64,000 nt of DNA from Squalus acanthias (taxonomy: Eukaryota): assembly GCA_030390025.1 (NCBI GenBank), contig CM059431.1, positions 154,940,001 to 155,004,000 on the forward strand, written 5' to 3'. Position 1 is the stretch's first letter; each line of letters opens with the position of its first letter. The notes beneath the pieces were generated by a model. The model did no database searches. It was not told the origin of the DNA and saw only the letters and a program-made list of their open reading frames with translations. The position numbers were made by a program, and so were the translations under genes. Below, in pieces: positions 29,522 to 57,409 of the stretch.

Positions 29522-29650
29522 AGATTGACGATACTGCAATAATGGACAAACAAGGCAAGATAATCGTCACGGTTGCAGTCTCAGTTGCAATACTGGTGGG
29601 AGCAGTAGGAGTTCTTGTGACGTGTTATTGGACAAACCAGAAAAATAGCG
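29522..29650 (+). CDS. Candidate host exon encoding a single transmembrane/signal-anchor helix (IDDTAIMDKQGKIIVTVAVSVAILVGAVGVLVTCYWTNQKNS)
   Basis: Acceptor TCATTTACAG| and donor G|GTAAGA; 129 bp, open frame, ~22 hydrophobic residues. ATG at 29542 is in strong Kozak context (ATAATGG). Lies in non-repetitive sequence. Confidence 0.7.
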
Positions 29651-30802
29651 GTAAGATTGCACCGCCGACTGTAATGATGAAGGAAATACAAATAAAAAAA
29701 TAACCAGTTGCATTTTTGGTGTAGTAAAAGAAATACACCACATACTTTGTTATTGTCTCCCTAAATTATCCACCTCTACGTCATCAGGTAATCATTAAAC
29801 TTATGCTCAAAAACCTACTTTTTTGACTGCACTTCATTTACATCTTCTTGAACCCTTATTATCATTTTCGTTGTCCCGGATGTGTGCGTTCTTGCTTCAG
29901 TAAAACTTCCTTTAGGCGCCTTGGAATATTTATATTCCACGTTAAAGACGCCGTACAAATATACGTTGTTGATGATGACGTTTTGTCTTTATTAATAGAG
30001 ATAACTCTCACGCCTTTCTCCGATCAGACTCCCGCAAATGCCTCTGAGTTTTATAGTGATGTACTATCAGTTCTTTAATTATACCAGCTACAGTCATGCA
30101 TTGGATAAATTATTGATGACTGCGTGATTATTTTCTATTCATATCGCAAACTGTTTTCCCAAAATTATTTCCTTATTACTCGGTGTAATGATATCCACAA
30201 AAATTAGTGTGATTGCAATTGAGTTCAAAATATTTCCAATTCACTTGTTAACCCGATCACCGTTTCCTTTCGCTGTTCAATGGTATGTCTTGTACTTTTG
30301 AGCACCCGCTTGATCTTGGAGTTAAGGGAAATAAATGAATGTAACATTCATCAATCGATGGGTTTCGAGTCGGACGCCCCCGTATACTGACAACGCAACA
30401 TTCCTGCCAATAAAGGGAATATAACTCTTTTATTATCTGATAAATTAATTTCAGGTAAATCACAGCAGGATGCCGTTTAAGTGAGCAACGTCAAGAGGAA
30501 GTATCTTTGTCGGCGGGGGGAAGAGAGGGAATAACGAAATACATGTGATCCATAAGGAGTTAGTGAAGCATGGGGAGGCAGAACTAACAAAAAATGAAGT
30601 AGGCAGATGCCCGGATGAAGTAGGGTACGATGCGGGAAAAGTATGGAGAGCGAAATGTGAATTACATGCGGTTACGTAGGAGATACCTCAAAGAACAGTC
30701 GATTCCGCCCAACCAGACCATGCCGGCGTTTGTGCTCCACTCAAGCTGTGGAAATGCAAGTTGTTGTTGTGAATTATGTGACTTATGTCTTTATTATACT
30801 AG

Positions 30803-30858
30803 GTATGAAACAGCAGGAAACTGAGTTTTACAATGCCTCAAACTTAGTTCTAAATTAA
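30803..30858 (+). CDS. Possible short terminal exon (GMKQQETEFYNASNLVLN*) in phase with the TM exon
   Basis: Acceptor TTTATTATACTAG|GT, phase 1; AATAAA downstream at ~31432 and ~31568. Confidence 0.3.
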
Positions 30859-31644
30859 TTTCGCAAAATAACTTCAACTATATTTTGGAGAAATTACTGA
30901 TCCGAGACTGAAACTACATTTCCCCAGTGGGGAAAGGAAAGGACACTGACTGATAGTTTGATTGGACGCACGTGAGTGAACACACACAGCGAGACACGCG
31001 CACAAGTGGAGAATTGTGATTGTAAAACAGCAGTTAAATCTACCACTTGTATATTAATGGCCAATTCTGAGATTGTCAGACCCATAATTATATTCCAGAA
31101 ATCAATGCTGTTCATCATCTCACTGTTTAAAGTTACATGATTCATAATATTATTCATAAGTGTTAATAATAATGGAACAGTGGTAAATGACCTCACCTCC
31201 TATAGTGCTGATTCTTCAACTGCTGACACCATGAGAGATATGGTCAATATATTCAAATAGAAGCACCAAACAGGACACATCTCCAGTAACACACGGACAA
31301 TGTCACAGCCCAAAAAGATCAGAGGGATCACATCCAGACATATATTGTGTGTGGATAGATATCATAGTCATAAACTACCAGAATTTAATAACAAATCTGA
31401 GCAAATCCAAAATATTAAACAAAAATCGGTGAATAAATACAATATTATACCACCAGAGTGTAAAACCTACTGAAGGATCATTTAATTCATCAATGATCAC
31501 AAGCTCCATATTTCCCTGCAGAATATTCTCTACCTCAGGAATAAGGCTGGTTTTGGCGTGCACTGTGAATAAAGCTTACAAACGGGCACTCTCAGTCCGG
31601 AATCCCGGTCGACGGGAGCCCATCTGGAACTCGGTTGTGGAGAT

Positions 31645-55962: not shown

Positions 55963-56054
55963 TTAATAAAAAGGAGACGTAAGATCCCTTTTGAACAAGG
56001 TAAGTAACTAATTAAGTATAATTTGAAATTGAGATTTAACTTCTTTAGCAAGGA

Positions 56055-57090
56055 CGGAGCAGTCGAGAGTTATTTATTTGAGGAGAGTGTTGATGACGGC
56101 AGATTTGAAGGAGAGGGGAAGTGTACCTGAGGAGAGAGAGCAATTAATAATGTCAGCTAACATGGGAGCCAAAAAAGGAAATTGGTGGTCAGCAGTTAGC
56201 TGGGAATAGGATCGAGCGAGCAGGAACTGGTTCTCATAGACACGATGAGTAACGGAGAGGTCAGGGAGGAGACCAGAGAGAAGCTGGAGAAAGATGCGAG
56301 TTCAGGGCTAGGGCAGAGGGAACGTTATTGAATATTTTCCCGGTGGATTAGGAGAAGGGTGAGAAGTGGCAGAGGCAGCTGATCGGATGGTCTGAATCTT
56401 AGAGACAAATACATTTATGAGCCTCTCGCAATTGTTGTTGGAGGTGAGGGTGGAGGAGGCTGGGGAGAGAGGTTTAAGAAGATGTTTAGCAGTGGAGAAT
56501 AGAAGCCGGGGTTTGTCTTTGCATTCCAGAATTCTTTTGGAATAGTGAGCAATTTTTGCAGACGAGAGCAGGACCCGATAATGCTTTAAGTGGTCCAGCC
56601 AGAACTGGCGGCAAATGGCTAAACCCATTGTCCACCACATCAGTTCAATTCTGCGTCTCCTGGAGTTAAGGGAACGTTATGAGGTCTGTACCAATTGGAA
56701 AAGCGAGGGTGAGAAAATGTGATTGATTTAATAGGGAGTAGGGCATCGAAGGTGGTGGTGAGGGTGTGGTTGAGCTGATCGGGAGCTGTAGAAATGTTGT
56801 GGTGAATGGAGGGCCAAAAGCTGGATAGCTGGAATTTCGTAAATGCAGTTTTTAAGAGTGTTGGGAGAGAGATTTTTCGACACAGAATGAAGTAAGTTTG
56901 AGGGGGAAGGGGGATGTGGAAGGATTGTGATAGGGATTTGGGAAAGCAGCGTATTCAAAAGCGCAGAGATGAACGGAGGTATTACGACTGGAGAGAGCGA
57001 TTAGGTAGGTTTAGAGAGAAAAGGAAAAAACGGGAGGAAAAAGTGGAAATAGAAGTGGACGGCTCGGGTCTGGAGCGGCATACAAAATGC
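56055..57090 (-). mobile_element. L2 fragment, paralogous to 34625-35470 and 36450-36570
   Basis: WLDHLKHYRVLLSSAKIAHYS.RILECKDKPRLLFST matches the 34804-35145 ORF region. Confidence 0.85.
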
Positions 57091-57313
57091 ACACTCAAGA
57101 TCAGCGGGACTCACTGGATTTCACTCGGCAGCTGTCTGTGTCACACCTGATCTGGAGTGGTGATGGTAACAGTCGGGAAATGCTGGTAACCAGAGCTAAC
57201 AGTTTGCTGTACTGATGGGGGAGGAGGGCCTTGATATCATGGTTAATAAGGCAACGTTCTGCTTCTCATCTTAATATTTCTGCCTATCCCTCCTATTAAT
57301 GTATTTATTAAAG

Positions 57314-57409
57314 AGCATCAGAACCTGGGAACGCCTGTCACCGGCATGGCCGAAGTTCGAAACAGGGGAAAGGAGCCAACAATTTCAGGAAAATTGAGAA
57401 ATAACAGAG
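57314..57409 (+). CDS. Paralogous candidate 96-bp host exon (HQNLGTPVTGMAEVRNRGKEPTISGKLRNNR)
   Basis: Acceptor TTTATTAAAG|, donor G|GTAGGT, same length and phase as 36796-36891, no stops. Confidence 0.55.

What the first reader, a model, noticed from the sequence alone, without database searches (positions are those of the whole stretch)
29522..57409. Hidden in-frame exon chain: N-terminal transmembrane anchor joined to an NLR-like leader (candidate membrane-tethered shark NLR)
Seen: three small + strand exons with canonical splice sites, invisible in the ORF track. They are 29522-29650 (TM helix, strong-Kozak ATG at 29542, ends phase 1) and 36796-36891 and 57314-57409 (each 96 bp, phase 1-1). 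Spliced, they read without a stop: MDKQGKIIVTVAVSVAILVGAVGVLVTCYWTNQKNS-EHQNIETPVPTMAEGPNREEDLASSKMIRKDT-EHQNLGTPVTGMAEVRNRGKEPTISGKLRNNR-. From recollection, MAEGPNR.ED...S.M.RKDT resembles the start of the expanded chondrichthyan 'NLRP3-like' NACHT-LRR proteins. Vertebrate NLRs are normally soluble, so an upstream signal-anchor exon would be an unusual architecture. Inference: the death-fold/NACHT/LRR exons lie beyond 64000, since none is in this window.
Basis: partly seen in the sequence, partly recalled or inferred. Interest (0 to 1): 0.8.

Follow-up and report, generated by a model that had tools for sequence, protein, structure and literature searches.

The report
Membrane-anchored NLR exon in sharks
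Three small exons in a shark-type genome encode a hydrophobic, predicted membrane-spanning helix and two leader pieces of an innate-immune sensor (NLR) gene whose sensor exon is broken in this copy, and the helix exon likely comes from an overlooked group of shark and ray NLRs predicted to sit in membranes, whereas vertebrate NLRs are normally described as soluble.

Summary
The three exons are real, canonical and in frame. The 96-bp exons are paralogs of the usual start exon of shark/ray NLRs. The helix exon has 12 close copies in one cluster. It is 75% identical in DNA to a helix exon of sister genes that read signal-peptide-like exon, helix exon, CARD, NACHT, LRR. Those NACHTs form one clade (100/100) with RefSeq models from 10 shark and ray species carrying a hydrophobic N-terminal segment; 0 of 120 ordinary homologs do.

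The window copy is a chimera: a 48-kb insert with a generic NLR promoter and the two 96-bp exons splits the ancestral helix-to-CARD intron. Its upstream flank is replaced by a retroelement, and its NACHT exon, 63 kb past the window, is broken, so it cannot make a full receptor. A sister copy has an open helix-leader-CARD-NACHT chain. The helix-to-leader splice is inferred, not seen.

Membrane NLRs are published for anthozoans, sponges and sea cucumber; nine searches found none for sharks or rays. The scan earlier noted CARD arrays and a CARD-plus-helix gene elsewhere in this genome. Verdict: probably defective member of an apparently undescribed vertebrate transmembrane NLR clade.

The parts
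29522..29650 (+). Helix exon, 129 bp, phase 1-1, open from its acceptor; ATG at 29542; about 22 hydrophobic residues followed by Cys/aromatic and polar or basic residues (RKNR in most paralogs)
   Evidence: 12 close copies; 75% DNA identity to the helix exon of clade genes on C2044 and C7:156.65 Mb
29651..30242 (+). First half of the ancestral helix-to-CARD intron; the second half lies at extended coordinates 78534-79356, ahead of the CARD exon
   Evidence: C2044 gene 45374-46201 matches 29440-30242 (69%) and 46239-47238 matches 78534-79548 (73%)
30803..30858 (+). Possible alternative short terminal exon giving an 18-residue tail and a stop after the helix; overlaps the start of the generic promoter module, so it may be incidental
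   Evidence: similar tail found in 9 of 10 copies
30880..31182 (+). Generic NLR promoter / 5' non-coding exon module (ISRE-, NF-kB-, CCAAT- and E-box-like motifs read by eye, names recalled; donor at 31183)
   Evidence: 399 candidates, 40 scored at 83-100%; 550 bp ahead of the 96-bp exon of an ordinary NLR on C2120 with no helix exon in 13.7 kb upstream
36796..36891 (+). 96-bp NLR leader exon (phase 1-1) with the in-exon MAEGPNR start used by ordinary shark NLRs
37431..55356 (.). 27-bp-unit satellite, about 660 copies, inside the intron between the two leader exons
57314..57409 (+). Second 96-bp leader exon, a tandem duplicate of the first (77% over 900 bp with flanks)
27022..29243 (+). Retroelement with a reverse-transcriptase ORF (Penelope-like label recalled) standing where sister copies have their shared upstream flank
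   Evidence: RVT_1, E 1.5e-08

Best explanation
The helix exon likely descends from a shark-and-ray clade of NLRs predicted to be single-pass membrane proteins, and here it precedes, in frame, two leader exons inserted from an ordinary NLR, in a copy whose NACHT exon is broken. Ancestral layout (inferred from sister genes and RefSeq models): signal-peptide-like exon, short ectodomain, helix, one or more CARDs, NACHT, LRR. The helix would insert N-out/C-in, because basic residues and cysteines follow it, and hold CARD-NACHT-LRR on the cytosolic face. On activation the NACHT would oligomerise in the membrane plane and the clustered CARDs would recruit caspase-1, ASC or RIPK2 (by analogy with NOD/NLRC4, untested). 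In this subfamily the signal exon is absent, so the in-exon ATG would make the helix a signal-anchor; the phase-1 leader exons would act as a flexible spacer; and the inserted promoter would give a soluble isoform. Sister copies such as C7:158.71-158.83 Mb could make the whole receptor. The window copy can make at most a membrane-tethered leader-CARD fragment (adaptor or decoy) and may be silent, since its upstream flank is gone. Shown: exons, frames, intron homology, clade, CARD fold of the closest homolog, broken NACHT. Inferred: splicing, topology, signalling.
For: Helix exon and 800 bp of intron are 69-75% identical to the second hydrophobic exon of genes on C2044 and C7:156.65 Mb, where it lies 1.6 kb before CARD, then NACHT and LRR, with no promoter module or leader exon between. 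The C2044 NACHT exon is open for 575 codons. It groups at 100/100 with 11 hydrophobic-N-terminus models in a 32-row IQ-TREE. In the 80-row FastTree the clade has 27 rows: 12 with a segment of hydropathy >=1.9 before the NACHT, 2 own, 13 without, 9 of which have <=54 residues before it. The 12 come from 4 shark and 6 ray species. 0 of 120 ordinary homologs have such a segment. Mustelus XP_078087540.1 reads hydrophobic start, helix, 3 CARDs, NACHT, LRR, and its CARDs are the best match to the first CARD exon after the window. Stegostoma isoforms use the similar exon internally (P0268, P0132) or start at the equivalent ATG (P0271). The repeat folds as a CARD (pLDDT 92; VIA Z 11.6, rmsd 2.1, 96 aligned). 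A sister chain from the helix through 7 leaders, CARD and linker is open for 395 aa and continues into 574 open NACHT codons. RNA contigs join one 96-bp exon to the next in an ordinary paralog.
Against: The generic promoter sits 1.3 kb after the helix exon in all 11 close copies mapped, so soluble transcripts need no helix. No codon-level purifying signal in the helix exon: 5 synonymous against 31 non-synonymous variants in 11 copies, and zero stops among 36 variants is expected 30% of the time. None of the annotated proteins held matches both the helix and the leader peptide. The NACHT type linked to the window lies outside the membrane clade. Protein-level likeness of the helix to other species is modest (profile E 0.002-0.016 for the best three genes among 284 proteins with null2 off; unrelated control helices reach shuffle p 0.018-0.25). 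The RefSeq proteins are automatic models, and P0125 starts with LINE-derived residues. Four clade rows with long N-termini show no helix. A second helix at 86431 would put the first CARD and the NACHT on opposite sides if all exons were joined.
Confidence: 0.6

Rival explanations
1. The ancestry is as above, but in this subfamily the helix exon no longer feeds the leader exons. The inserted promoter starts an ordinary soluble NLR, the window's helix exon is a silent passenger of duplication, and copies placed after CARD arrays act as a C-terminal tail anchor of poly-CARD proteins (MAVS-like).
For: Promoter module between helix and leader; upstream flank of the window copy replaced; 5 of 11 mapped helix copies follow CARD exons, joined through a breakpoint 208 bp upstream; intron read-through or the 30803-type exon gives a stop within 17-18 residues; no purifying signal; a gene with the same NACHT type at C7:157.13 Mb has no helix exon in the 67 kb upstream.
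Against: 11 of 12 copies keep the frame and both splice sites, with no indel in 129 exon columns against 42 of 820 flank columns; the oldest arrangement (6 of 11 copies) has no CARD exon upstream; the helix donor and leader acceptor match in phase in every copy.
Confidence: 0.27
2. No membrane NLR exists: the shark and ray models are gene-prediction fusions of a small neighbouring membrane gene with an NLR.
For: All outside support comes from automatic RefSeq models whose read support was not visible here; helix peptides differ much between species; one model begins in a LINE.
Against: The helix is confined to one NACHT clade in 10 species and absent from 120 other models from largely the same species; it recurs in 9 of 9 Mobula cluster members and 5 of 5 Stegostoma members; in this genome the exon is duplicated together with the CARD intron.
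Confidence: 0.08
3. The segment sends the downstream part into the ER lumen (cleaved signal peptide or N-in/C-out anchor), so the product is secreted or has an extracellular NACHT, as reported for sea cucumber AjNLR-new.
For: The window copy has net +1 before the helix and about 0 after it (read); a related exon encodes a shorter signal-peptide-like stretch; precedent in PMC13133943.
Against: The hydrophobic run is about 22 residues; most paralogs have net -1 before and +2 to +3 after; clade models carry a separate signal-like segment and N-glycosylation sequons before the helix; CARD and NACHT act in the cytosol (established knowledge).
Confidence: 0.05

Closest known systems
Elasmobranch RefSeq models 'NACHT, LRR and PYD domains-containing protein 3/6/12-like' with a hydrophobic N-terminus: Mustelus XP_078087540.1, Stegostoma XP_059498866-70.1, Pristis XP_051865153.1, Mobula XP_062892860.1 and XP_072131658.1, Heterodontus XP_067864722.1, Narcine XP_069750415.1, Hypanus XP_059817741.1
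   Same: Helix followed by Cys and basic residues ahead of CARD and/or NACHT-LRR; same NACHT clade as the helix-exon genes on C2044 and C7:154.13 Mb; Hypanus and Rhinoraja models also place long repeats between the hydrophobic segment and the NACHT
   Different: Automatic models, unnamed as membrane proteins; several have a signal-like segment and ectodomain that the window lacks; none has the 96-bp leader after the helix; the window's linked NACHT is of another clade and is broken
Expanded NLRP-related family of the whale shark (Tan et al. 2021, PMC8455134) / ordinary chondrichthyan NLRs
   Same: 96-bp leader exon, promoter module, two-exon CARD, single large NACHT exon, short LRR region
   Different: No membrane helix (0 of 120); described as intracellular receptors in the passages read
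Anthozoan transmembrane NLRs (PMC3879445, PMC5094078)
   Same: N-terminal membrane segments joined to NACHT-LRR, forming one clade within an otherwise cytosolic family
   Different: 3-5 helices with a gap-junction-like profile; called anthozoan-specific. Here: one helix, plus CARD, in a vertebrate
Sea cucumber AjNLRC4 and AjNLR-new (PMC13133943)
   Same: Membrane-localised NACHT proteins with one or two helices, reported as bacterial receptors
   Different: Built with Ig domains; the shark clade models scanned have no Ig domain and keep CARD and LRR
MAVS (recalled)
   Same: CARD held on a membrane by one helix; copies placed after CARD arrays could work this way
   Different: MAVS has one CARD and a C-terminal anchor; the window's helix is upstream of its CARD and is of NLR origin

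Membership tests
NLR (NACHT-LRR) gene | Intact NACHT with Walker A in the linked gene | tested here: not met
   Linked exon (extended 127016-131406) has a 2.67-kb insertion in the P-loop, first stop at codon 104, and a 1-bp deletion. Met in sister copies: Pfam NACHT E 6.5e-37
NLR (NACHT-LRR) gene | C-terminal LRR exons | tested here: met
   Two LRR exons at extended 133389 and 135636
NLR (NACHT-LRR) gene | N-terminal death-fold domain | tested here: met
   Two-exon modules at 79357/84084 and 121935/126199; the closest homolog's repeat folds as a CARD. The window-linked module itself was not folded
NLRP (PYD-type), as the RefSeq names imply | Pyrin domain | tested here: not met
   Top fold matches are CARDs (Z 11.6 to 8.0); the first pyrin row is rank 50, Z 6.0
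Ordinary chondrichthyan expanded NLR | Promoter module followed by 96-bp MAEGPNR leader exon | tested here: met
Elasmobranch transmembrane NLR clade (defined here) | Helix exon homologous to that of clade genes | tested here: met
   75% DNA identity plus intron homology to the C2044 gene, whose NACHT is in the clade
Elasmobranch transmembrane NLR clade (defined here) | NACHT inside the clade | tested here: not met
   The type linked to the window (95% to cluster C) groups with P0001-P0003 outside it: the locus is a chimera
Elasmobranch transmembrane NLR clade (defined here) | Signal-peptide-like exon upstream of the helix | tested here: not met
   No copy in 69 kb upstream; the genome search finds 5 copies, none near the window
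Elasmobranch transmembrane NLR clade (defined here) | Helix and CARD/NACHT in one transcript | tested here: inconclusive
   Only contig runs were available and the joint table was cut
Elasmobranch transmembrane NLR clade (defined here) | Membrane insertion with cytosolic C-terminus | not testable with these tools
   Hydropathy and charge pattern only; no TM or signal predictor on hand
Anthozoan transmembrane NLRs | 3-5 N-terminal helices | tested here: not met
   One helix per exon; only the Narcine model shows three repeats
Sea cucumber Ig-TM-NACHT receptors | Ig domain | tested here: not met
   No Ig family in 9 clade proteins scanned; a motif scan of 664 kb found no Ig-like exon
MAVS-like tail-anchored CARD protein | CARD upstream of a C-terminal helix | tested here: not met
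   No CARD exon in 69 kb upstream of the window's helix; possible for the copy at 86431

The most novel reading that the evidence does not exclude
Sharks and rays share an undescribed clade of single-pass transmembrane NLRs (signal peptide, variable ectodomain, helix, CARD, NACHT, LRR), the first vertebrate family of this kind. In this genome the helix exon has been shuffled onto other NLR leaders, CARD arrays and NACHT types, so one locus could give membrane-bound and soluble sensors from two promoters.
Probability: 0.65. Interest if true: 0.8.

Novelty: new variant of a known kind. Interest (0 to 1): 0.66.

Why it matters
Vertebrate NLRs are taught as cytosolic sensors, and papers on invertebrate membrane NLRs call them anthozoan- or invertebrate-specific. 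A clade kept in both sharks and rays would show that jawed vertebrates also have NLRs built like surface or organelle receptors, possibly linking an outside or lumenal signal to CARD signalling. It is directly testable, because intact genes and named RefSeq models are listed here. The window copy itself is probably defective; its value is that it records how the helix exon, promoter, leader exons and CARD modules are shuffled as phase-1 cassettes.

Tried and rejected
No RNA holder listed for 29400-29800. Three contig runs of the same species label were laid on a sister stretch holding CARD, helix, promoter and leader; repeats dominated, 15 joints were listed and 173 not shown, and none listed touches the helix exon: no verdict. 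Depth in the helix bin cannot be told from repeat depth.

Word-based protein searches with the helix exon and a CARD exon found nothing; weak tests. Pfam gave no family for the 31-aa peptides. An Ig ectodomain upstream was considered and rejected. Origin of the helix exon from the 5' end of a NACHT exon was tested and not supported. A promoter with a GTAAGC donor upstream of sister copies was considered; the donor is not conserved. Sequence search of solved structures with one CARD repeat gave only chance hits; the atlas hit was a lead at 0.85; Foldseek gave no E<=0.001 match for the repeat, though its top rows are CARDs. In the full-length model the N-terminal 138 residues had pLDDT<50, so it says nothing on the helix. 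The 80-row IQ-TREE did not finish; FastTree and a 32-row IQ-TREE were used. Six multi-NACHT or fragment rows were left out of the tree input, as were rows aligning over <280 residues. Paper search was swamped by the word 'shark'.
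Full report
OBSERVATION. The window is G000:C7:154940001-155004000; positions above 64000 below are the same count extended. The three exons have AG/GT ends and join into the 100-aa stop-free peptide quoted. The helix exon is 129 bp, phase 1-1, and open for six codons before the ATG, so it can serve as an internal exon. 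It has 12 copies at 87-100% identity between C7:154.0 and 159.3 Mb, plus 8 partial matches at 73-83%. Eleven keep frame and both splice sites, with best 19-residue hydropathy 2.27-3.06; the twelfth has a stop and lost the ATG.

THE 96-BP EXONS. A search with an open sister NACHT exon listed 120 chondrichthyan NLR models. Twenty-nine begin with the MAEGPNR-type motif that lies inside exon 36796, two more carry it internally, and none has a segment of hydropathy >=1.9 before the NACHT. The exon with flanks gave 412 candidates. All 31 96-bp copies examined lack stops (rough P 0.03 by chance). One joint in three contig runs carries 30 letters that, at 5 of 5 genomic places, end a 96-bp exon followed by a GT donor; in the contigs they run into the next 96-bp exon. 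So tandem leaders are spliced in at least one ordinary paralog.

A PROMOTER IN BETWEEN. Window 30780-31200 gave 399 candidates. On C2120 the module lies 550 bp before a 96-bp exon, then CARD, linker and NACHT, with no helix exon in 13.7 kb upstream. It follows the helix exon by about 1.3 kb in the 11 copies mapped and also recurs alone before CARD arrays and leaders. Its motif names (ISRE, NF-kB, CCAAT, E-box) are read by eye and recalled; that it is a promoter is inferred.

DOWNSTREAM. On the + strand follow a second promoter module (73467), CARD exons (79357, 84084), a second helix exon (86431), a third module, a leader (99999), CARD exons (121935, 126199), a linker, NACHT (127016) and LRR exons (133389, 135636). 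Ten exons join without a stop for 534 aa up to the P-loop. There a 2.67-kb retroelement insertion interrupts the NACHT exon, and a 1-bp deletion follows. Upstream, identity with sister copies ends at 29244 beside a reverse-transcriptase element, and no NLR exon lies in 69 kb. This copy cannot encode a full receptor.

SISTER COPIES. At C7:158.71-158.95 Mb the order is helix, 2 leaders, 9 CARD modules, helix, 7 leaders, CARD, linker, NACHT, 2 LRR exons. From the second helix the chain is open for 395 aa and the NACHT exon for 574 codons; across the CARD array two splice junctions create stop codons. The copy at 159.12-159.18 Mb has a frameshifted CARD exon. Codon variation in the helix exon shows no purifying signal (5 synonymous, 31 non-synonymous), but no indel falls in it, against 42 of 820 flank columns.

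ORIGIN OF THE HELIX EXON. The diverged matches belong to genes on C2044 and C7:156.65 Mb with two related hydrophobic exons, a short signal-peptide-like one and a 22-residue helix followed by basic residues, directly ahead of CARD, NACHT and LRR. The 1.6-kb helix-to-CARD intron of the C2044 gene matches window 29440-30242 in its first half and 78534-79548 in its second, and is split the same way in two other copies. The promoter, both leaders and the satellite are therefore a 48-kb insert into a helix-CARD gene. The helix exon of these diverged genes lacks the donor at the window's position and would use a later in-phase GT, so their splicing is also inferred.

A CLADE IN SHARKS AND RAYS. The open C2044 NACHT exon was searched against 1.84 billion representatives; the best 150 were listed. 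In an 80-row tree, 12 proteins with a hydrophobic segment before the NACHT fall in one 27-row group with two own sequences; of the other 13 rows, 9 have <=54 residues before the NACHT and 4 have long N-termini without a helix. A 32-row IQ-TREE gives the group 100/100, with a bichir model and two unnamed distant rows on the other side. The 12 are RefSeq models from Heterodontus, Mustelus (2), Stegostoma, Chiloscyllium, Pristis (2), two Mobula species, Rhinoraja, Narcine and Hypanus. Several read signal-like segment, ectodomain, helix, CARD, NACHT, LRR. Three are weak: P0130 and P0151 are marginal and P0125 starts in a LINE. The window-type helix scores 46-62 against 8 of 13 clade segments and 24-34 against 3 control helices; the link rests mainly on the within-genome DNA homology. 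The NACHT type linked to the window is outside the clade. The Mustelus repeat closest to the CARD exons after the window folds as a CARD; its full model matches NOD2, NLRP3 and NLRC4.

MECHANISM. Most likely (0.6) the helix inserts N-out/C-in and holds CARD-NACHT-LRR at the cytosolic face; NACHT oligomerisation then clusters CARDs that recruit caspase-1, ASC or RIPK2. This is inferred from charge pattern and from known NLRs. In this subfamily the in-exon ATG would start a signal-anchored form and the internal promoter a soluble form; a Stegostoma isoform starts at the equivalent ATG. Rivals: the helix is no longer spliced to the leaders and serves only as passenger or tail anchor (0.27); the models are prediction fusions (0.08); opposite topology (0.05).

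LITERATURE. Passages found by term search were read in PMC8455134 (whale shark NLRP-related expansion, NLRs called intracellular), PMC5094078 and PMC3879445 (anthozoan NLRs with 3-5 helices, called anthozoan-specific; weak sponge cases), PMC12909245 (sponge), PMC13133943 (sea cucumber), PMC9680067 (trout NLRX1 with two potential helices) and PMC9680068 (sturgeon NLRC3-like, none). PMC11508797 and bioRxiv 10.64898/2026.04.26.720791 had no occurrence of the terms. Nine searches listed no paper on transmembrane NLRs in cartilaginous fish. The library lacks most subscription papers, and no supplement was read; Supplementary file 12 of PMC8455134 may bear on this.

EARLIER SCAN NOTES. After I had mapped the arrays, the look-up showed notes on tandem CARD arrays and on a CARD-plus-helix gene elsewhere in this cluster. 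None of the eight listed describes the membrane clade.

VERDICT. Observation confirmed; interpretation partly supported. This copy is a probably defective chimera, but it points to an apparently undescribed clade of vertebrate transmembrane NLRs. New variant of a known kind; interest 0.66.

Noticed in passing
P0200 (Polypterus XP_039601942.1) and P0257 (Narcine XP_069757801.1): Two further vertebrate NLR models with Ig-V, Ig-C and a membrane helix ahead of the NACHT, outside the clade described here; possibly independent membrane NLRs or prediction fusions.
   Followed up: partly
G000:C7:158.84-158.90 Mb (L073-L079): Nine tandem two-exon CARD modules; each exon is open, but two CARD-to-CARD splice junctions create a TAA stop.
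   Followed up: yes
G000:C7:155.30-155.38 Mb (L137-L145): A helix exon followed by at least 8 tandem leader exons of 96-108 bp, all open; no NACHT reached in the fetched stretch.
   Followed up: no
G000:C2044:261784-288722 (L120-L122): Apparently intact clade gene: signal-like exon, helix exon, CARD, open NACHT exon, three LRR-region exons; best candidate for bench work.
   Followed up: partly
P0156 (Hypanus XP_059817741.1): About 1,700 residues of tandem repeats between the helix and the NACHT in a 2,639-aa model.
   Followed up: no
window 13379-13921 (-): DDE_Tnp_4 transposase fragment (E 1.1e-25); the surrounding 11263-14627 matches a copy at C7:158.42 Mb at 96-98%.
   Followed up: partly
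window 37431-55356: The 27-bp satellite shows a higher-order repeat of about 4.0-4.4 kb (identical ORFs recur); similar satellite lies after leader exons in sister copies.
   Followed up: no
G000:C7:158379766-158382132 (L057-L058): A 789-codon open frame resembling an LTR-element gene, with a related broken copy at extended 210-217 kb (label recalled).
   Followed up: no
extended 169700-173460 (-), L031-L032: A second, broken NACHT-LRR gene of the membrane-clade type on the opposite strand.
   Followed up: partly
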